IMG/VR virus record: IMGVR_UViG_3300022932_000016
Location: 1-19,905 of that record
DNA length: 19,905 nt
Direction: 5' to 3' (one strand)
Source of the DNA: a virus
Lineage: Duplodnaviria > Heunggongvirae > Uroviricota > Caudoviricetes
Positions 996 to 11,723 of this stretch are shown here, piece after piece (within the stretch, counting starts at the first letter, position 1; the number at the start of each line of letters is the position of its first letter). Below the pieces are notes generated by a model. That model was not told where the DNA came from, searched no databases, and saw only the letters and a program-made list of their open reading frames with translations. The position numbers and the translations under genes were made by a program.

Positions 996-1068
996 TGGTT
1001 CTCACGCTAGGACTCGCACCCAGATAATCGGTTCCAAAGACCGAGGTCCTACTTTAGACGACACGAGA
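996..1068 (-). tRNA. trnQ: tRNA-Gln(UUG)
   Basis: Acceptor TCTCGTG/CGTGAGA, anticodon arm TCGGT CTTTGGA ACCGA, variant T-loop TGCGAGT, encoded CCA. Confidence 0.9.
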
Positions 1069-1071
1069 TTA

Positions 1072-1147
1072 TGGGGTAAAAGATGAGAATTGAACTCACG
1101 TTATCGGCACCACAAGCCGACGTTCTAACCATTGAACTACTTTCACC
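1072..1147 (-). tRNA. trnH: tRNA-His(GUG)
   Basis: G-1:C73, anticodon arm TCGGC TTGTGGT GCCGA, T-loop TTCAATT, CCA. Confidence 0.93.
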
Positions 1148-1152
1148 ACGCT

Positions 1153-1216
1153 TGGCTCTGCACACGGGTTGCAACGTCATTGGGGAGATATCATGCCCTT
1201 TGACACATGTGCAGAG
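1153..1216 (-). ncRNA. CCA-ended tRNA-like RNA A (64 nt, no anticodon arm)
   Basis: CTCTGCACA/TGTGCAGAG terminal stem followed by CCA, D-arm-like GTGT CAAAGG GCAT and a degenerate T-arm ACG TTGCAACC CGT. Sits between tRNA-Ser and tRNA-His with 2- and 5-nt spacers. Confidence 0.6.
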
Positions 1217-1218
1217 TT

Positions 1219-1302
1219 TGGCGGAAGATTGGATAATCGAAAACCATGCTTTCACACTCATCGCTTAGCGGGCGAGTCCAGTACCTTACTGGTTAATCTT
1301 CC
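1219..1302 (-). tRNA. trnS: tRNA-Ser(GCU), atypical (C33)
   Basis: Acceptor GGAAGAT/ATCTTCC, loop CC-GCT-AA, variable arm with GAAA loop, T-loop TTCGATT, G73, CCA. Confidence 0.85.
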
Positions 1303-1305
1303 ATG

Positions 1306-1393
<88 letters not shown>

Positions 1394-1402
1394 ACATTTT
1401 TT

Positions 1403-1490
1403 TGGTCGGTCTAGCTAGATTCGAACTAGCACGAGGTGTTAACCTCCGCAGGGTTTAAGCCTGCTATGTCTACCATTCCATCATAGACCG
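1403..1490 (-). tRNA. trnL: tRNA-Leu(UAA)
   Basis: GCAGG CTTAAAC CCTGC, long variable arm, TTCGAAT, A73, CCA. Confidence 0.95.
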
Positions 1491-1495
1491 TTATT

Positions 1496-1582
1496 TGGTA
1501 CCGAAGGCGGGACTCGAACCCGCAAACTCTTTCGAGCACTGGTTCCTAAGACCAGCGTGTCTACCAATTCCACCACTTCGGC
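1496..1582 (-). tRNA. trnL: tRNA-Leu(UAG)
   Basis: GCCGAAGTGGTGGAATTGGTAGAC start, CTGGT CTTAGGA ACCAG, TTCGAGT, CCA. Confidence 0.96.
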
Positions 1583-1587
1583 ATATT

Positions 1588-1672
1588 TGGTGTGCTTACT
1601 CAGATTTGAACTGAGATGAGATTAACTCGGTAGCTTTTGAAACTACTGCGTATACCGTTCCGCCATAAGCAC
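1588..1672 (-). tRNA. trnL: tRNA-Leu(CAA)
   Basis: GTAGT TTCAAAA GCTAC, variable arm, TTCAAAT, CCA. Confidence 0.93.
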
Positions 1673-1677
1673 ATATT

Positions 1678-1752
1678 TGGAGAAACGTATCAGATTTGCA
1701 CTGATGTAAAACGGGTTTGCAATCCGTTGCGTAGCTGCTCCGCCAACGCTTC
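1678..1752 (-). tRNA. trnC: tRNA-Cys(GCA)
   Basis: ACGGA TTGCAAA CCCGT, U73, variant T-loop TGCAAAT, CCA. Confidence 0.9.
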
Positions 1753-1757
1753 ATATT

Positions 1758-1873
1758 TGGCACCCCCGCAAACCTTTAGGGTGAGCTAACAAGTGTTTTT
1801 TATAACGCGTATGTTGCACTTGCTTGCCTGCGTATCTACTCAGGTAATTAAGCTGAGCACTACAAACGGGGGT
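1758..1873 (-). ncRNA. CCA-ended non-cloverleaf RNA C (116 nt)
   Basis: 8-bp terminal stem ACCCCCGT/GCGGGGGT + G + CCA. Hairpins GCTCAG/CTGAGT, AGCAAGTG/CACTTGTT and ACC-CTAAA-GGT. Flanked by 5-nt AATAT spacers like the neighbouring tRNAs. Confidence 0.65.
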
Positions 1874-1878
1874 ATATT

Positions 1879-1949
1879 TGGTGAAGTAGGACGGAATCGA
1901 ACCATCGCCTTTTGATTTACAGTCAATCGGGTGCCCTGCACACTACAAC
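1879..1949 (-). tRNA. trnY: tRNA-Tyr(GUA), degenerate, short variable loop
   Basis: TTGA CTGTAAA TCAA, T-loop TTCGATT, CCA. Two T-T mismatches in the acceptor stem and a shrunken D-arm. Confidence 0.7.
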
Positions 1950-1954
1950 ATATT

Positions 1955-2031
1955 TGGTGGTTTCGGTCTGAATTGAACAGACGACCCCCTGTTCTTCAAA
2001 CAGGTGCTCTAACCAACTGAGCTACAAAACC
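1955..2031 (-). tRNA. trnF: tRNA-Phe(GAA)
   Basis: CCTGT TTGAAGA ACAGG, canonical D- and T-arms, CCA. Confidence 0.96.
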
Positions 2032-2075
2032 AAGTCGTACCTATCAGTTATAGACTATAGGTAAGTCTGTCTTGT

Positions 2076-2156
2076 TCGGGGAGCCAGGAGTTGAACCTGG
2101 GCATCGGGACTATATTACTCAGCTGCCCGCAGCACTATCGTTATGCTTACTCCCCG
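2076..2156 (-). tRNA. tRNA-like gene with a Pro-type acceptor, a 17-nt anticodon loop and no encoded CCA
   Basis: Perfect acceptor CGGGGAG/CTCCCCG + A73, D-arm AGCA/TGCT, T-arm CCAGG TTCAACT CCTGG. Anticodon stem CGGG/CCCG encloses CAGCTGAGTAATATAGT. Confidence 0.7.
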
Positions 2157-2161
2157 TTATA

Positions 2162-2236
2162 TGGTCAGTCCAGTAGGGTTCGAACCTACGGTCTCTTACT
2201 CCCAAAGCAAGCGTGATACCACTTCACTATAGACTG
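2162..2236 (-). tRNA. trnP: tRNA-Pro(UGG)
   Basis: C1-G72, CTTGC TTTGGGA GTAAG, TTCGAAC, CCA. Confidence 0.95.
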
Positions 2237-2241
2237 AAACT

Positions 2242-2316
2242 TGGCTCTAGATATTGGAATCGAACCAATCGCCTTCTCCTTAACAGGGAGCTGCCCTACC
2301 GATGGGCCGATCTAGA
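2242..2316 (-). tRNA. trnN: tRNA-Asn(GUU)
   Basis: CTCC CTGTTAA GGAG, G73, TTCGATT, CCA. Confidence 0.95.
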
Positions 2317-2321
2317 TTATT

Positions 2322-2396
2322 TGGCGCGACCAGCGAGAATTGAACTCGCGACTCTACCGTGACAGGGTAATATATTAACCACTATACTATGATCGC
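2322..2396 (-). tRNA. trnD: tRNA-Asp(GUC)
   Basis: TTACC CTGTCAC GGTAG, G73, TTCAATT, CCA. Confidence 0.95.
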
Positions 2397-2401
2397 AGAT
2401 T

Positions 2402-2484
2402 TGGCACACGTACACAGATTCGAACTGCTTAGCTTTCGCACAGGTTTTGGAGACCTGTTCCCATCGCCACTAGGGAGTACATGT
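2402..2484 (-). tRNA. trnW: tRNA-Trp(CCA) with an enlarged variable region
   Basis: CAGGT CTCCAAA ACCTG, variable region TGCGAAAGCTA, TTCGAAT, G73, CCA; 83 nt. Confidence 0.88.
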
Positions 2485-2489
2485 ATATT

Positions 2490-2845
2490 TGGGTGCTGGG
2501 TTTTGTTGATTTGTTACCAGCGTCTCGGTCAAGGTTAGCCCGCATCACGCGTGACTATCCTTGTCGAACCGATCAGACCTTTCATCGGTAGTCTGAATGA
2601 GCCTTATACTCTAGAGTCGCTTATCTCTCTTGAGCAGGGTGCGCTGAACGCTCCATAGGTCGGCAGACCTGTCGTACAACCATATTCGAGGGATAGGAGT
2701 GTATGCCCCAGCTTAATCTATCGCTCTTTGCAATAGACCCTCTGTTAACTCGACCACGCGCTACCCATCTCGGTTTCAAGCGTCGTCACAGAGTTTCACT
2801 CTCCGTTTGCAGCTATACCGAGCCAAAGCCTTGTCCGTCGGTTTA
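2490..2845 (-). ncRNA. Large structured RNA D (about 350 nt, 5' end approximate) ending in CCA
   Basis: No long ORF. Many stems, including CTCGGT/ACCGAG, GGGT(A)GCGC/GCGCACCC, TCTATTGC/GCGATAGA, AGGTC/GACCT, TCAGAC/GTCTGA and CAAGG-TAGTC-CGC/GCG-GGCTA-CCTTG. The 3' end ...CCCAGCAC-CCA lies 5 nt before tRNA-Trp. Confidence 0.7.
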
Positions 2846-2851
2846 ATTGTT

Positions 2852-2887
2852 AAAAAAAGACACCTACTTTTTTGGGTAGATGTCTTT
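2852..2887 (-). terminator. Intrinsic terminator of attenuator 2
   Basis: 12-bp stem AAAGACATCTAC/GTAGGTGTCTTT with an 8-nt loop, running into a U-tract. Confidence 0.85.
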
Positions 2888-2938
2888 CGTTGTTTTTGTT
2901 TTCAAATCTTCTTATGAAGAAAACGACAAGACACCTAC
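2876..2938 (-). promoter_or_regulatory. Antiterminator of attenuator 2
   Basis: GTAGGTGTCTT-G-TCGTT (in the last codons of the leader ORF) pairs with AACGA-AAGACATCTAC, the 5' arm of the terminator: 16 bp, mutually exclusive with the terminator. Confidence 0.8.
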
Positions 2939-3004
2939 ACTAAATTGATCTGGGCAATTTGACCAGAGCTGTGAGAGTAGTGAGTGACTATATAATGTCT
3001 TCAT
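2912..3004 (-). CDS. Leaderless attenuator leader peptide 2 (30 aa)
   Basis: MKTLYSHSLLSQLWSNCPDQFSVGVLSFSS*. The ATG is 6 nt after TATAAT and the ORF overlaps the antiterminator. Confidence 0.8.
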   Translation of the reverse strand: MKTLYSHSLLSQLWSNCPDQFSVGVLSFSS

Positions 3005-3010
3005 AATTTC

Positions 3011-3040
3011 ATTATACCATAAAAATAAATGGCAGTGCAA
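3011..3040 (-). promoter_or_regulatory. Sigma70-type promoter of tRNA unit 2
   Basis: TTGCAC-N18-TATAAT with an extended -10 (TGgTATAAT). Confidence 0.8.
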
Positions 3041-3055
3041 TAGATTTAATAATTT

Positions 3056-3130
3056 TGGTCACCCATACCAGAGTTGAACTGGTCTTGCATGATTGAAAAT
3101 CATGTGTCCTAACCGATAGACGAATGGGCG
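3056..3130 (-). tRNA. trnE: tRNA-Glu(UUC)
   Basis: CATGA TTTTCAA TCATG, TTCAACT, CCA. Confidence 0.94.
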
Positions 3131-3135
3131 ATATG

Positions 3136-3212
3136 TGGTGAAACCGATAGGGATCGAACCTATGACACCCTGATTAAGAGTCAGGTGCTCTAACCAACTG
3201 AGCTACGGTTCC
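3136..3212 (-). tRNA. trnK: tRNA-Lys(CUU)
   Basis: CCTGA CTCTTAA TCAGG, canonical arms, CCA. Confidence 0.96.
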
Positions 3213-3309
3213 GTATCGTGAGAAGGTGCTACGAGAAGTTTCGGCTCATACGTCCATGCAATTCCTGCCTGGTTTGACCTCGTAATCATACTTGCTACCA
3301 ACATGTATT
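3213..3309 (-). ncRNA. Structured 97-nt spacer element E
   Basis: TACGAG/CTCGTA stem enclosing the hairpin CCA-G-GCA GGAAT TGC-A-TGG; much longer than the usual 2-8 nt spacers. Confidence 0.35.
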
Positions 3310-3385
3310 TGGTGGAGTTGCAGAGAATCGAACTCTGGTGAAGACGTTGCAAACGTCCCATAATAAACCGTTATATGACAACCCC
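3310..3385 (-). tRNA. trnA: tRNA-Ala(UGC)
   Basis: G3-U70, GGACG TTTGCAA CGTCT, TTCGATT, ACCA. Confidence 0.95.
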
Positions 3386-3393
3386 GAATTGTT

Positions 3394-3469
3394 TGGTAGT
3401 TCCCGCTGGACTTGAACCAGCACCAGCTTCGTTAGAACCGAAGTGCCCTATCCATTAGACCAGAGAACC
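3394..3469 (-). tRNA. trnR: tRNA-Arg(UCU)
   Basis: CTTCG GTTCTAA CGAAG, TTCAAGT, CCA. Confidence 0.93.
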
Positions 3470-3697
3470 TTATATTTCTGCTTTGAGGTATTTATCGAGC
3501 AGGTCGTTGACTTGAGTAATGTGAATCATACCAGCTTGTTTCACAGCTATTTCACCAAAGTGTCTGCGTAGTACTTCAAAACCCTGTTCGAGTGCTTGCG
3601 TTTCTTCTTCAATGATGTCGCGAGTTAGGTCATGCACTAGACTTTCAGCTTGTCGTTTGACTAAGTTTGGGTCTGGGTCTTTGCGGTATGCTTCCAT
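3470..3697 (-). CDS. Hypothetical protein (75 aa) inserted in the tRNA array
   Basis: MEAYRKDPDPNLVKRQAESLV..., TATAAT (3704-3709) 6 nt before the ATG, stop abutting tRNA-Arg. Confidence 0.7.
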   Translation of the reverse strand: MEAYRKDPDPNLVKRQAESLVHDLTRDIIEEETQALEQGFEVLRRHFGEIAVKQAGMIHITQVNDLLDKYLKAEI

Positions 3698-3713
3698 ACT
3701 CTCATTATACGTA

Positions 3714-3788
3714 TGGTGCGGGTACACAGAATCGAACTGTGATCCCCTGATTGGAAGTCAGGTATATTAGCCGTTATACTATACCCGC
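3714..3788 (-). tRNA. trnG: tRNA-Gly(UCC)
   Basis: CCTGA CTTCCAA TCAGG, TTCGATT, A73, CCA. Confidence 0.94.
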
Positions 3789-3795
3789 ATTGATT

Positions 3796-3873
3796 TGGAG
3801 CCCCTCACGGAGTCGAACCGTTCTTCGTACCTACCACGGTACGCGTGCTAACCAGCGTTACACTAATTGGGGC
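3796..3873 (-). tRNA. Aberrant tRNA-Thr(GGU)-like gene with an 8-nt anticodon loop
   Basis: GCCCC/GGGGC acceptor with distal mismatches, D-arm GTGT/GCAC, CGTAC CGTGGTAG GTACG, 4-bp T-stem with TTCGACT, CCA. Confidence 0.65.
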
Positions 3874-3876
3874 GTA

Positions 3877-3950
3877 TGGGGCCGCCACTCGGTACTGCCC
3901 CGAGGTCGATAGTTTACAAAACTACTACTCTACTATTGAGCTATAGCGGC
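3877..3950 (-). tRNA. trnT: tRNA-Thr(UGU)
   Basis: GTAGT TTTGTAA ACTAT, variant T-loop GGCAGTA, D-loop AATAGTA, CCA. Confidence 0.9.
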
Positions 3951-3957
3951 ACGTTCT

Positions 3958-4033
3958 TGGTAGTCCCAGAAGGAATTGCACCCTCGACACCTTGTTCCGA
4001 AGACAAGTGCTCTATCTGCTGAGCTATGGGACT
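3958..4033 (-). tRNA. trnR: tRNA-Arg(UCG)
   Basis: CTTGT CTTCGGA ACAAG, variant T-loop TGCAATT, CCA. Confidence 0.92.
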
Positions 4034-4036
4034 ATA

Positions 4037-4140
4037 TGGTGCACGGGGGTAGCTTTAGGCTACCTCTATTCTAATAACGCTTTGGTGCACCTCTACGCTT
4101 TCGATTCTCGAGCCACGTTGCAACGATGTGCTCTCCGTAC
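4037..4140 (-). ncRNA. CCA-ended non-cloverleaf RNA B (104 nt)
   Basis: Terminal stem GTACGG/CCGTGC + A + CCA, 3' hairpin GGTAGC-CTAAA-GCTACC, 5' hairpin GAGC...CGTTGCAACG...GCTC, flanked by 5- and 3-nt spacers. Confidence 0.65.
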
Positions 4141-4145
4141 TAATT

Positions 4146-4230
4146 TGGTTGCGGGGACGGGATTCGAACCCGTGTATCTTGCGACAAAGGGATATGAGCC
4201 CTCCGAGAATGACCACTTCTCAACCCCGCT
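4146..4230 (-). tRNA. trnfM: Initiator-type tRNA-Met(CAU) with a long variable arm
   Basis: 1:72 mismatch (A-A), three G-C pairs GGG/CCC in the anticodon stem, loop CTCATAT, variable arm TGTC-GCAA-GATA, ACCA; 85 nt. Confidence 0.9.
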
Positions 4231-4235
4231 ATATG

Positions 4236-4312
4236 TGGTCGTCCCTCTAAGATTCGAACTTAGGACCTCCTGTGTGTAAAACAGGTGCTCTAGCCAATTG
4301 AGCTAAGGGACG
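4236..4312 (-). tRNA. trnV: tRNA-Val(UAC)
   Basis: CCTGT TTTACAC ACAGG, TTCGAAT, ACCA. Confidence 0.96.
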
Positions 4313-4320
4313 TTATTGTT

Positions 4321-4394
4321 TGGTCGGTGTAGGTGGTTCTGCCCCACCGTGTGCAGAATATAAGTCTGCTGTTCTACTATTGAACTATACACCA
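4321..4394 (-). tRNA. trnI: tRNA-Ile(UAU)
   Basis: GCAGA CTTATAT TCTGC, variant T-loop GGCAGAA, D-loop AATAGTA, ACCA. Confidence 0.88.
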
Positions 4395-4401
4395 GAATGC
4401 T

Positions 4402-4478
4402 TGGTTGGACGAGTAGGATTTGAACCTACGGTCTCCTGAATATCAGTCAAGTGCTTTAACCAGCTAAGCTACCGTCCA
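4402..4478 (-). tRNA. trnI: tRNA-Ile(GAU)
   Basis: CTTGA CTGATAT TCAGG, TTCAAAT, ACCA. Confidence 0.95.
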
Positions 4479-4485
4479 TTATTTT

Positions 4486-4560
4486 TGGTGGGCTCGGTTG
4501 GAATCGAACCAACGTGGTACAGATTAAAAGTCTGCTGCTCAACCACTGAGCCACGAACCC
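4486..4560 (-). tRNA. trnK: tRNA-Lys(UUU)
   Basis: GCAGA CTTTTAA TCTGT, TTCGATT, ACCA. Confidence 0.96.
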
Positions 4561-7300: not shown

Positions 7301-7860
7301 TGATTACTTACCACGACAAAATTGAACAAAACACGCCTGAATGGTTTGCTATTCGCGAAGACCACCCACTTACAGGGTCAACTTCGTATGAGTTTCTACT
7401 AGCCCGTAACCCAGCAACGTACGTTCTCAAAGAGAGCAACTTCACTGGTAACAAGTACACGGAGCGTGGTCATACGTTAGAGCCTGTAGCAAGGAAGCTC
7501 CTAGACCGCGTGTACGACATCAAAACGCTTGAGACGGGTTTCGTTACCAATAGCGACTTCCCGTGGTCAGGCTGCTCTCCAGACGGGTACACAGACGTAT
7601 ATATGGTCGAGATCAAATGCTTTATGAAAGAACGACACCTACTGAATGCGGTGACGACTGACGCGAAGATTTTATCCCAAGTGCAGTGGAACATGATGAT
7701 TATGGGCAAGAAGAAGGCGCTACTCGTTTTCTTTTGTCCTGATAATACGCTAGAACCGTCCGAACAGCTTATAATTAAAGAGATAGACGCTAACCCGCAT
7801 ATCTGGGCTAATATGAAGAATAGGATCGAAGTTTATGGCGCAGCAAGAACTAATACTTGA
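7300..7860 (+). CDS. YqaJ/lambda-exonuclease-like PD-(D/E)xK nuclease
   Basis: Q.T.EWF..R....TGS, RGHTLEP.AR, CSPDG, EIKC and QVQW motifs. Confidence 0.9.
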   Translation: MITYHDKIEQNTPEWFAIREDHPLTGSTSYEFLLARNPATYVLKESNFTGNKYTERGHTLEPVARKLLDRVYDIKTLETGFVTNSDFPWSGCSPDGYTDVYMVEIKCFMKERHLLNAVTTDAKILSQVQWNMMIMGKKKALLVFFCPDNTLEPSEQLIIKEIDANPHIWANMKNRIEVYGAARTNT

Positions 7861-10790: not shown

Positions 10791-11723
10791 ATGAAAAAAC
10801 CTATTCTACGCATGATGGTTGGTCTGCCTGGCTCAGGTAAGAGCACAGCAGCTAGTGAACTAACAGACAACAGCACCCCTGAAGAAACTTGGGTGCAGGT
10901 TGAAAAAGATATTATTCGTAAAGACGGAAGTCTTTTTGAGGGCGGTAAGTACGACCACGACCGAGGTGACGAAGCTATCGTTATTCGTGAACGCAACCGT
11001 CAGATTCGTGACGCGCTACGAGCTGGTAACAGTGTAGTCGTTTCAGACACAAACCTAGACCCCAAGCACCGTGGTCAACTTCGAATGCTGGCTACAGAGA
11101 CCGACGTAGATTTTGAAGTCGATGACAGCTTCTTAGACGTATCGGTTGATGAATGTATTAAACGTGATGAAGACCGCGAACAAAGTATCGGTAAAGACGT
11201 TATCTTAGATATGTATTACAAATACGTACACCCAGGCTTTCACCAACGTCGTTCTGACTGGAAAGACAAGCTACCACGTGCGTTCTTGTGCGACATCGAC
11301 GGTACGCTGGCTCACAACTATACTGGGCGAAGCTGGTACGATCTTGACCTAGTAAAGAATGACACACCAAACTACGCACTGACACACATCTTCGACGCTA
11401 TCGACCTGTTTCGTGATGACTTTTCACGTAAGCACACGAAGTACACACACATCATTCTCTTGAGTGGTCGTAAAGAGGGTGCTCGGGCTGCTACAGAAGC
11501 ATGGTTAGACCAATGGTCAATACCGTATGATGAACTCATTATGCGCGCAGACAACGACGACCGACAGGACGCCATCACAAAGAAAGAGCTGTACGAGCAA
11601 CACATCAAAGACCGATACAATGTTCTTGCGGTATTTGATGACCGTCCACAGGTAGTCGATATGTGGCGACGTGACCTTGGTTTGATGGTATTTCAAGCTG
11701 CTGACCACGACTTGAAGTTTTAG
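10791..11723 (+). CDS. pseT: Polynucleotide 5'-kinase/3'-phosphatase (T4 PseT-like)
   Basis: N-terminal P-loop GLPGSGKS with DTNL; C-terminal HAD domain CDIDGTLA, SGR, K and FDDRPQVVDMWR. Confidence 0.9.
   Translation: MKKPILRMMVGLPGSGKSTAASELTDNSTPEETWVQVEKDIIRKDGSLFEGGKYDHDRGDEAIVIRERNRQIRDALRAGNSVVVSDTNLDPKHRGQLRMLATETDVDFEVDDSFLDVSVDECIKRDEDREQSIGKDVILDMYYKYVHPGFHQRRSDWKDKLPRAFLCDIDGTLAHNYTGRSWYDLDLVKNDTPNYALTHIFDAIDLFRDDFSRKHTKYTHIILLSGRKEGARAATEAWLDQWSIPYDELIMRADNDDRQDAITKKELYEQHIKDRYNVLAVFDDRPQVVDMWRRDLGLMVFQAADHDLKF

What the first reader, a model, noticed from the sequence alone, without database searches (positions are those of the whole stretch)
2490..2850. Unidentified highly structured RNA of about 350 nt, first in unit 2 and ending in CCA
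It occupies the first slot after attenuator 2, has no long ORF, and folds by eye into many helices with purine-rich GAAA/GCAA-type loops on the minus strand. Alternative partners exist: CTCGGT can pair with either ACCGAG copy, and TCGGT with ACCGA in a hairpin loop, which suggests a pseudoknot or switch. Its 3' CCA is followed by the same short spacer as the tRNAs, implying it is processed like one. Large phage RNAs near tRNAs (GOLLD, ROOL) are known but are longer, and I cannot match this one to any family from memory.
Basis: partly seen in the sequence, partly recalled or inferred. Interest (0 to 1): 0.8.

Follow-up and report, generated by a model that had tools for sequence, protein, structure and literature searches.

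The report
Modular structured RNA in phage tRNA-array
The 350-base gene-free stretch is a real, conserved, well-folded RNA region made of separable modules, and its first 100 bases belong to a large uncatalogued RNA family found almost only in phages, often among their tRNA genes, whose job is unknown.

Summary
Minus strand 2844-2490 is non-coding, conserved and structured: 17 of 101 predicted pairs show compensatory changes among 4 relatives, and 24 of 45 in the 3' part among 8. It has no Rfam match even at E<=10.

It is not shown to be one 350-nt RNA. It has three modules that also occur apart.
- Element 1 (2844-2747) belongs to a widespread family with about 22 invariant bases in two internal loops. 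A strict pattern finds it in 118 metagenome contigs, 96 IMG/VR contigs (31 long-form plus 65 short-form) and only 4 MAG contigs among 185,579 species genomes. Covariation is strong (0 of 500 shuffles). My model also finds it, unannotated, in Streptomyces phage Braelyn and Microcystis phage Mwe-JY13.
- Domain 2 (2742-2688) is a dispensable insert.
- Element 3 (2685-2490) has six helices and is confined to this phage clade.

The 3' CCA is confined to the window's closest relatives. The proposed alternative pairings resolve into two ordinary helices. tmRNA, RNase P RNA, GOLLD/ROOL and tRNA are excluded or unsupported.

Function is unknown. My best guess is stable trans-acting RNAs cut out of the tRNA precursor. 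This scan met Element 1 before on other DNA (e1-4039248, read there as a rewired tRNA). My data argue against decoding.

The parts
2747..2844 (-). Element 1. It is an irregular hairpin of about 100 nt. It has a closing helix P1 (2844-2837 with 2755-2747) and core strand A, GGACAAGGCUUUGGC (2836-2822). Helix P3 is CUCGGU/ACCGAG (2822-2817 with 2774-2769). A variable insert carries a GAGUGAAAC-type hairpin (2804-2790). Core strand B is GAUGGGUAGCG (2769-2759). It belongs to a widespread phage RNA family that is not in Rfam.
   Evidence: Covariance model R1, built from 111 family members, hits 2742-2849 at 71.8 bits, E 2.9e-17, and this is the only copy in the 83.9-kb genome. Family covariation: 92.7% of cells paired against 74.8% in shuffles, score 0.45 against 0.13, 0 of 500 shuffles as high, and slid controls pair at 26-49%. 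The R-Y pair is A-U in 87 sequences and G-C in 32.
2688..2742 (-). Domain 2. A GAGGG/CCCUC helix encloses two hairpins (UCUAUUGC-AAAGA-GCGAUAGA and GGGG...CCUA). It is a variable, dispensable insert between Elements 1 and 3.
   Evidence: It is present with compensatory changes (U-A to C-G, A-U to G-C) in the window, L003, L004 and L006. It is replaced by unrelated sequence in L012 and absent in L017.
2490..2685 (-). Element 3. It starts with junction AUAUGGUUGUACGAC (2685-2671). Then come hairpins H1 (2670-2657), H2 (2654-2638) and H3 with loop AGAUAAGCGA (2636-2607). Junction UAAGGCUCAU (2606-2597) follows. H4 has the conserved loop ACCGAUGAAAG (2596-2573). H5 is UCGGU/ACCGA enclosing a variable hairpin (2572-2525). 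H6 has the 17-nt loop UAACAAAUCAACAAAAC (2521-2495). The tail ends in CCA (2494-2490).
   Evidence: RNAalifold on 8 homologues gives 45 pairs, 24 of them with changes on both sides. Profile searches over all fetched loci find homologues in only nine distinct loci of the window's clade: L003, L004, L006, L012, L017, L121, L063, L056 and, as a core only, L013. L056 lacks H5 and H6, and L013 lacks H2 and H3.
2402..2484 (-). tRNA-Trp(CCA) lies 5 nt downstream of the RNA. It sets the likely 3' processing point, because RNase P cuts at its 5' end.
   Evidence: ARAGORN. The CCA-AAUAU spacing is shown.
2852..2895 (-). Upstream terminator hairpin and U-run of the leader/attenuator. The RNA begins just after it, and the sequence UUUAACAAUUAA after the U-run is conserved across relatives.
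   Evidence: Read from the sequence. The consensus scan did not call this terminator. The attenuator reading comes from another finding and was not tested here.

Best explanation
The region encodes tandem, independently folding, structured non-coding RNA modules, not a single tRNA-like 350-mer. They are co-transcribed with the second tRNA unit.

Element 1 (about 100 nt) is a member of a large phage-specific RNA family. Its function lies in a conserved core of two purine/G-rich internal loops plus a GGA bulge, held by covarying helices. The tip of the hairpin is free to be a tetraloop or a large insert.

Element 3 (about 195 nt, six helices) is a second structured RNA, limited to this clade, that rides behind it. 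Domain 2 is a dispensable insert.

Inferred, not shown: the modules are released from the polycistronic precursor by the host's tRNA-processing enzymes. RNase P would cut at the downstream tRNA-Trp, and endonuclease cuts would fall in the A/U-rich spacers. They then persist as stable RNAs acting in trans on something common to very different hosts, such as a component of translation or tRNA metabolism, or a small molecule. They are not regulators of a neighbouring gene.
For: Real structure and conservation:
-.

Modularity:
- Element 1 stands alone directly before tRNA-Trp in L080, L081 and L083, and between arbitrary tRNAs elsewhere.
- In L018 and L019 Element 1 is followed by other things.
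- An Element 3 core stands without Element 1 in L013.
- Domain 2 is absent in L017 and replaced in L012.

Family size and restriction to phages:
- 118 metagenome contigs, 31 plus 65 IMG/VR contigs, and 4 MAG contigs in 185,579 species genomes.
- GC of the host contigs runs from 28 to 69%.
- Confirmed with the model in cultured Streptomyces phage Braelyn and Microcystis phage Mwe-JY13, unannotated in both.

Covariation:
-.

The tip is dispensable:
- Short forms cap P3 with UUCG or GNRA tetraloops.

Gene-like behaviour:
- One copy per locus in 65 of 65 loci, and one in the window's own genome.
- Same-strand tRNA within 500 nt in 77 of 139 long-form and 23 of 59 short-form loci, and never an opposite-strand tRNA.
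- Many copies lie far from any tRNA.
- No recurrent neighbouring protein and no recurrent downstream gene.
- In L080 the element has a -10-like box upstream, and its closing stem is followed by a U-run.
Against:
- In the window's own clade Elements 1 and 3 are always adjacent and in the same order, separated only by the 55-nt domain 2 where present, or by short spacers. They could therefore work as one molecule there.
- No partner or ligand is identified, so 'trans-acting on a conserved host component' rests only on breadth of distribution and lack of a conserved neighbour.
- Element 3 rests on only 8-9 sequences from one clade.
Confidence: 0.55

Rival explanations
1. This is one 350-nt multi-domain RNA. 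It would be processed like a tRNA to a 3' CCA end, with Element 1, domain 2 and Element 3 as domains of a single functional molecule in this phage clade.
For: The three parts are contiguous, separated by spacers of only 3-5 nt. They come in the same order in the window, L003, L004, L006, L012, L063, L121 and L056. The window, L003, L004 and L006 end in CACCCA followed by the tRNA-type spacer. The tail GCACCCA is complementary to UGGGU(A)GC in Element 1 (my reading of the sequence).
Against: Each part occurs without the others. The CCA tail and its complementarity are lost in L012, L017, L121 and L063. No covarying long-range pair links the modules. RNAalifold offered two different weak 3-bp closures in two runs.
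Confidence: 0.2
2. This is a cis-acting element of the tRNA operon. Element 1 would be part of the attenuator or expression platform, or a folding and processing signal that helps cut or insulate neighbouring tRNAs.
For: In the window's clade it always follows the leader terminator directly. In L080 its closing stem plus U-run looks like a terminator in front of tRNA-Trp. Family members abut tRNAs at tRNA-like spacing.
Against: About half of the copies have no tRNA within 500 nt. It takes any position in arrays, next to any tRNA, with one copy per array. There is no recurrent downstream gene. About 22 invariant bases across hosts from 28 to 69% GC is more than a processing hairpin needs.
Confidence: 0.1
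3. Element 1 is a new small self-cleaving ribozyme that frees flanking tRNAs or itself from the precursor.
For: It has ribozyme-grade conservation in internal loops with a free tip. It is phage-associated and tightly packed against tRNAs. HDV-like theta ribozymes are known next to phage tRNAs (PMC10879173, listed; only its title and abstract snippet were read).
Against: It matches no ribozyme family of Rfam at E<=10. Its fold is a simple nested rod with no evident pseudoknot. No cleavage site can be inferred, and nothing was tested at the bench.
Confidence: 0.07
4. Element 1 is a non-canonical, decoding tRNA with a rewired D-arm. This is the reading of the earlier scan note e1-4039248 for the Streptomyces-phage short form.
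For: It occupies tRNA slots. It has a long terminal helix. About a third of members carry ACCA after the inner helix P1b (40 of 111). Some short forms have a 7-9-nt apical loop.
Against: The tip is a UUCG or GNRA tetraloop in several members and a 24-62-nt multi-hairpin insert in the long forms, including the window. There is no T-loop. The ACCA is internal, followed by the 3' strand of the outer helix. ARAGORN and the Rfam tRNA model do not call it. The window copy has no CCA after its terminal helix.
Confidence: 0.03

Closest known systems
Bacteriophage T4 stable RNAs rnaC and rnaD (species 1 and 2 RNAs; NC_000866 70908-71171)
   Same: They are small stable structured RNAs of unknown function, encoded in a phage tRNA cluster on the tRNA strand at tRNA-like spacing.
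   Different: There is no sequence or model similarity. R1 finds nothing in the T4 region. rnaC keeps a canonical T-arm, which Element 1 and Element 3 lack. Stray similarities (GAGUAGCG, AUAUGGUUG) are short and untested.
GOLLD (RF02032) and ROOL (Rfam) large ornate RNAs
   Same: They are phage or prophage-associated structured RNAs, often near tRNA genes, with unknown function (my own knowledge, plus the title and abstract of 10.1101/2024.12.08.627333 listed).
   Different: They are much larger, about 600-800 nt against 100 and 195. No Rfam hit was found at gathering or at E<=10.
tmRNA (RF00023, RF01849, RF04321)
   Same: Similar size (~350 nt), a CCA end in the window, and a position in phage tRNA clusters. 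A local resemblance of CUGAUCGGUUCGAC to the tmRNA 5' region was noted.
   Different: No Rfam or ARAGORN call. No T-arm and no acceptor stem. The UUCGAC resemblance is not conserved: it is UUUGAU in L003, L012 and L017, and it covaries as part of H5. Relative L015 carries both this RNA and a separate true tmRNA. No SmpB gene is in the genome.
Bacterial RNase P RNA (Rfam RNase P families)
   Same: A structured RNA of ~350 nt tied to tRNA biology.
   Different: No Rfam hit. By my reading, none of the conserved P4 sequences (GAGGAAAGUCC, ACAGAA...GGCUUA) is present. The 5' and 3' ends do not pair, and the 5' module closes on itself.
HDV-like theta ribozymes next to phage tRNAs (PMC10879173)
   Same: They are small conserved RNAs packed against tRNA genes in phage genomes.
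   Different: Element 1 is a nested rod without the double pseudoknot. No cleavage is shown. No Rfam ribozyme hit was found.
Unnamed candidates in 'Identification of over ten thousand candidate structured RNAs in viruses and phages' (PMC10690425)
   Same: That survey mined intergenic regions of IMG/VR, the collection that holds this window, for covarying structures of 29-151 nt. Element 1 could be among them.
   Different: This could not be checked, because the supplementary alignments are not held. The text names no tRNA-array family of this kind.

Membership tests
tmRNA | Match to a tmRNA covariance model or an ARAGORN tmRNA call | tested here: not met
   There is no hit at gathering or at E<=10. 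The same tools do find true tmRNAs in relatives L019 (88.3 bits) and L015 (60 bits) at another place.
tmRNA | tRNA-like domain: a 7-bp acceptor stem with G3:U70, a T-arm and a 3' ACCA | tested here: not met
   The 3' hairpin has a 17-nt loop and no T-loop. No 5' strand pairs with the tail, and the tail is not conserved.
tmRNA | SmpB partner available from the phage | tested here: not met
   PF01668 is absent from the 83.9-kb genome, while the control rang in 12 of 14 genomes. A host SmpB would still exist, so this is weak evidence.
RNase P RNA | Match to an Rfam RNase P model; P4 pseudoknot with its conserved sequences | tested here: not met
   There is no Rfam hit. The conserved P4 strings were not seen when I read the sequence. 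That comparison is from memory.
GOLLD / ROOL / other Rfam 15 families (4227 models) | Covariance-model match | tested here: not met
   No match inside 2490-2850 at E<=10. None for the divergent homologue in L015 or for a short form in L230.
tRNA (canonical or rewired) | Anticodon loop of 7 nt kept across the family | tested here: not met
   Tips are UUCG or GNRA tetraloops, 8-10-nt loops, or inserts of 24-62 nt.
tRNA (canonical or rewired) | T-arm with T-loop, and a terminal NCCA after the acceptor stem | tested here: not met
   There is no T-loop. The ACCA seen in 40 of 111 members is internal to the closing helix. The window copy has none. ARAGORN and RF00005 are silent.
Element 1 family (uncatalogued; defined here by model R1) | Core strands GGAC-R-AGGCU-NN-GGC and R-UGGG-W-AGCG-N-G-Y-GG in register | tested here: met
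   The window has GGACAAGGCUUUGGC (2836-2822) and GAUGGGUAGCGCGUGG (2769-2754).
Element 1 family (uncatalogued; defined here by model R1) | Helices P1b, P2 (R-Y), GCU/AGC and P3 formed | tested here: met
   All are formed in the window row of A5. R1 scores 71.8 bits, E 2.9e-17. The window was part of the seed alignment, so the score is partly by construction. Independent members such as Braelyn and Mwe-JY13 score 50-54 bits.
Small self-cleaving ribozymes (hammerhead, twister, twister-sister, pistol, hatchet, HDV-like, hairpin) | Match to the class model, or the class's conserved core | tested here: not met
   No Rfam hit. Catalysis itself is not testable with these tools.

The most novel reading that the evidence does not exclude
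Element 1 is a new functional RNA class on a par with riboswitch aptamers or small ribozymes. It would be a roughly 65-nt conserved core that phages of very different hosts express at tRNA-like levels. That core has two G-rich internal loops (NNGG facing RUGGGW), a GGA bulge, and often an embedded ACCA. Its role could be to bind a universal target, for example tRNA 3'-CCA ends or a defence-signalling nucleotide, acting as an RNA sponge. Alternatively it could cut itself out of tRNA precursors.
Probability: 0.15. Interest if true: 0.9.

Novelty: new member of a known kind. Interest (0 to 1): 0.62.

Why it matters
Phage tRNA clusters have held unexplained stable RNAs since T4's rnaC and rnaD. 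Here one slot of such a cluster holds a member of an RNA family found in 214 pattern-matching contigs. Its core is invariant across phages of Actinobacteria, cyanobacteria and probably Gram-positive hosts. It is nearly absent from cellular genomes and is missing from Rfam and from GenBank annotation.

That level of conservation usually marks a ligand pocket, a catalytic centre or a binding site for a universal partner. Cultured carriers exist: Streptomyces cluster phages such as Braelyn, and Microcystis phage Mwe-JY13. The function is therefore directly testable.

For this window the result also corrects the annotation. The stretch is not one tRNA-like 350-mer but tandem RNA modules behind a leader terminator.

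Tried and rejected
- **tmRNA, including a circularly permuted form.** Rejected. There are no model hits, the UUCGAC look-alike is not conserved, relatives carry a separate true tmRNA, and there is no SmpB.
- **RNase P RNA, SRP RNA, 5S-like, T-box, group I intron, intron-split tRNA.** No Rfam hit. No tRNA halves or T-arm were seen on reading.
- **Y RNA with Ro60.** No TROVE gene.
- **T4 rnaC/rnaD homology.** None.
- **Protein-coding.** No conserved ORF.
- **18-mer CTGATCGGTTCGACAAGG scan.** The two extra hits, L008 and L010, were chance matches inside a GC-rich coding region.
- **Exact 28-31-mer scans of IMG/VR.** These returned only the three close relatives.
- **BLAST of the window's RNA against 50,697 GenBank phages.** No match.
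- **Conserved protein neighbour.** None. The largest cluster covers 18 of 161 loci and consists of generic DNA-metabolism genes. No recurrent downstream gene.
- **Literature search for the core strings.** Only unrelated primers.
- **Supplement of the IMG/VR structured-RNA survey.** Not held.
- **Long-range pairing between modules.** Only weak 3-bp suggestions that were inconsistent between runs.
- **CGCUUG (Element 1 insert) with UAAGCG (H3 loop).** This complementarity is specific to the window and not conserved (my reading).
- **The 71 GenBank records.** These are weak BLAST matches with E up to 10. Only Braelyn was confirmed with the model.

Full report
**Setting.**
The window is the first 19.9 kb of an 83.9-kb IMG/VR virus record. 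Positions 996-4560 hold a minus-strand array of tRNA genes: 22 by ARAGORN and 24 by Rfam. Nearby genes are phage recombination and RNA-repair genes (RecT, exonuclease, polynucleotide kinase). The finding occupies 2490-2850, between a leader terminator and tRNA-Trp (2402-2484).

- The region has no conserved ORF. The longest ORFs (52 and 47 aa in the window) change strand, frame and place in five relatives.
- The minus strand folds to -113.7 kcal/mol, z -2.29 against dinucleotide shuffles. The plus strand gives z -1.34. On its own this is a modest signal.
- The strong evidence is comparative. I reached relatives through the neighbouring RecT gene and through DNA patterns.
- On four sequences, RNAalifold gives 101 pairs, 17 of them with changes on both sides. 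On eight sequences of the 3' part it gives 45 pairs, 24 with such changes.
- There is one copy per genome.
- Rfam 15 has no match at gathering scores or at E<=10. This holds for the window, for the most divergent full-length homologue and for a short form.

- All tRNAs of the array encode CCA, and most are followed by a short A/U-rich spacer of the AAUAU type. The RNA's end, CACCCA-AAUAU, follows that formula.
- That end is kept only in the closest relatives L003, L004 and L006. L012, L017, L121 and L063 end differently. A CCA end is therefore not a feature of the RNA.
- The alternative partners resolve cleanly. CUCGGU pairs with the first ACCGAG: window CUCGGU/ACCGAG, L003 CACGGU/ACCGUG, L004 CACAGU/ACUGUG. 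This helix covaries across the whole family.
- UCGGU pairs with the 3' ACCGA, which becomes CCGAU/GUCGG in L003.
- The ACCGA in the hairpin loop is part of a conserved loop, ACCNNUGAAAG. Its NN varies (GA, AC, AA, CU) while UCGGU stays fixed, so that pairing is not maintained. I found no support for a switch or pseudoknot.

**The stretch is modular.**
Profile searches of relatives and reading of the slots show three parts.
- Element 1 (2844-2747) stands alone directly before tRNA-Trp in L080, L081 and L083. It is followed by other RNAs in L018 and L019.
- Domain 2 (2742-2688) is present in the window, L003, L004 and L006. It is replaced by unrelated sequence in L012 and absent in L017.
- Element 3 (2685-2490) follows Element 1 in the window, L003, L004, L006, L012, L017, L063, L121 and L056. 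In L056 it lacks the last two hairpins.
- A reduced core of Element 3 occurs without Element 1 in L013.

**Element 1 is a member of a large family.**
- A pattern built from its two conserved strands (GGACRAGGCTNNGGC, 34-64 nt, GATRGGTAGCG; about 23 specified bases, so my rough estimate is a handful or fewer chance matches) found 118 metagenome contigs and 31 IMG/VR contigs.
- It found only 4 contigs, all from MAGs, in one genome each of 185,579 prokaryote species.
- A variant for short forms found 65 more IMG/VR contigs.
- Host contig GC runs from 28 to 69%.
- The consensus is an irregular hairpin:
  - an outer helix P1a;
  - an internal loop (one purine facing ACCA, AU or A);
  - P1b of 4 bp;
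  - a GGA bulge;
  - a 2-bp helix whose R-Y pair is A-U in 87 sequences and G-C in 32;
  - a 2x3 loop (AG facing GNG);
  - the invariant GCU/AGC;
  - a 4x6 loop (NNGG facing RUGGGW);
  - P3 of about 5 bp;
  - then a free tip.
- On 111 distinct sequences the 14 core pairs are formed in 92.7% of cells, against 74.8% in column shuffles. The covariation score is 0.45 against 0.13, with 0 of 500 shuffles as high. Sliding the partners by 1-3 columns gives 26-49% paired.
- The tip is a UUCG or GNRA tetraloop in the shortest members and a multi-hairpin insert in the long forms, 52 nt in the window. The function must therefore lie in the internal loops.
- A covariance model (R1) finds exactly one copy in the window's genome (71.8 bits) and one in each of 65 short-form loci.
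- R1 also finds unannotated copies in Streptomyces phage Braelyn, inside its tRNA cluster (50.7 bits), and in Microcystis phage Mwe-JY13 (54.1 bits).
- Weak BLAST matches suggest about 68 related Streptomyces phage records and two Arthrobacter phage records. I did not confirm these with the model.

**Context of the family.**
- Of 139 distinct long-form loci, 77 have a same-strand tRNA within 500 nt and none has an opposite-strand one. For short forms the figures are 23 of 59 and none.
- Where tRNAs flank the element, spacing is tRNA-like. The core pattern starts 7-23 nt after the upstream tRNA, which is about the length of the 5' strand of the closing helix. No particular tRNA is preferred.
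- No protein family recurs nearby. The largest cluster covers 18 of 161 loci and holds generic phage nucleases, HNH enzymes and RNA ligase. No downstream gene recurs: the largest cluster is 3 of 146.
- In L080 the element has a -10-like box upstream, and its closing stem is followed by a U-run.
- Together this reads as a single-copy RNA gene that uses tRNA operons as a convenient place to be made and trimmed. It does not read as a leader of some gene.

**Element 3.**
- Its six helices all covary among the window, L003, L004, L012, L017, L121 and L063. Examples: H4 UCAGACU/GGUCUGA against GUGGGAA/UUCCCAC against GUAGAG/CUCUAC; H6 GCUGG/CCAGC against GUUAAG/CUUAAC.
- Four single-stranded pieces stay conserved: RGGUUGUR at the start, the H3 loop AGRAUAAGCGA, the H4 loop UACCNNNRAAAG, and the H6 loop ACAAAUCAACAAAAC.
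- I found it only in this phage clade, and it matches nothing known.

**What it is not.**
- tmRNA was the obvious candidate: about 350 nt, a CCA end, a tRNA cluster. But no model or ARAGORN call supports it, and there is no T-arm or acceptor stem. The local UUCGAC resemblance mutates to UUUGAU as part of a covarying helix. Relatives L015 and L019 carry a separate, genuine tmRNA, and the genome has no SmpB.
- RNase P RNA, SRP RNA, T-box, group I intron and Y RNA/Ro60 find no support.
- T4 rnaC and rnaD are analogous in setting but unrelated.
The family-wide view here shows tetraloop tips, large inserts, no T-loop and an ACCA that is internal when present. This argues against any decoding role, though I did not examine that note's particular copies.

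**Most likely mechanism, and how sure.**
- Shown: conserved structure, modularity, family membership, restriction to phages, association with same-strand tRNAs, single copy, and no conserved protein neighbour.
- Inferred: the modules are transcribed with tRNA unit 2 once the upstream terminator is read through. They are then released by the cuts that mature the flanking tRNAs and persist thanks to their long closing helices.
- Also inferred: they act in trans on something shared by very different hosts. The G-rich loops and the frequent embedded ACCA make a tRNA-end or nucleotide-binding role an attractive guess, but nothing tests it.
- I put about 0.55 on 'tandem independent stable RNAs acting in trans'. 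The rivals get 0.2 (single multi-domain RNA in this clade), 0.1 (cis-acting operon element), 0.07 (new self-cleaving ribozyme) and 0.03 (odd tRNA).

**Novelty and interest.**
As a kind of thing it is familiar: an orphan structured RNA in a phage tRNA cluster. As a family it appears undescribed. It is absent from Rfam 15 and unannotated in GenBank phages, and I found no paper naming it. It may hide among unnamed candidates of PMC10690425, which I could not check. Its breadth, invariant core and cultured carriers make it a good experimental target.

Noticed in passing
L018:5953-6026 (minus strand); L005 about 7305-7376 (minus strand); L149, upstream of its tRNA-Trp: Related phages carry a ~73-nt 'tRNA-like-domain-only' tmRNA look-alike. 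It has acceptor stem GGGGCUA/UAGCUCC with G3:U70, a UCGAC D-region, a capped P2 hairpin, a T-arm with a GGCGGUA loop, and ACCA. It has no room for a tag reading frame. Rfam tmRNA_permuted scores 29.4 bits, E 2.6e-4, below the gathering score. In L005 and L018 it occupies the slot just before tRNA-Trp that Elements 2 and 3 fill in the window.
   Followed up: partly
L019:1848-2284 (minus strand); L015:2307-2667 (minus strand): Relatives of this phage encode full tmRNA genes (Rfam 88.3 and 60 bits) downstream of the tRNA array. The window has none.
   Followed up: no
window 2402-2484 (minus strand): tRNA-Trp(CCA) is 83 nt long with a long variable arm, which is unusual for tRNA-Trp. Rfam's tRNA model does not call it, and only tRNA-Sec gives a weak 28.6 bits. 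The same 83-nt form is in L003 and L017, while L018, L019 and L005 have a normal 72-75-nt tRNA-Trp.
   Followed up: no
window 1882-1952, 3880-3950, 4324-4394 (minus strand): Three tRNAs are called by Rfam (33-49 bits) but missed by ARAGORN.
   Followed up: no
family alignment A5; for example L066:315-410, L098:1150-1246: In 40 of 111 long-form members (and many short forms) the 3' strand reads G-[3 nt]-ACCA-G between the inner and outer closing helices, opposite a single purine. This embedded acceptor-end look-alike (NCCA after a 4-bp helix) may mark an RNase P-type processing site or a mimic of a tRNA end.
   Followed up: partly
L080:3916-4035 (minus strand) and flanks: Here Element 1 has a TATAAT-like box about 60 nt upstream. 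Its closing stem is followed by a run of U before tRNA-Trp, so in this phage it looks like a self-contained promoter-RNA-terminator unit.
   Followed up: no
L012:9237-11102; L015:12644-14502; window 10791-11723: Relatives pair an RNA ligase (PF09414) with the polynucleotide kinase-phosphatase, which is the T4-type tRNA repair pair. The window has the kinase-phosphatase, but no RNA ligase ORF was seen next to it.
   Followed up: no
window 2845-2860 and relatives: The sequence UUUAACAAUUAA just after the leader terminator's U-run is conserved even in distant relatives (L005, L018, L019, L063, L121). It may be a processing site or part of the terminator.
   Followed up: no
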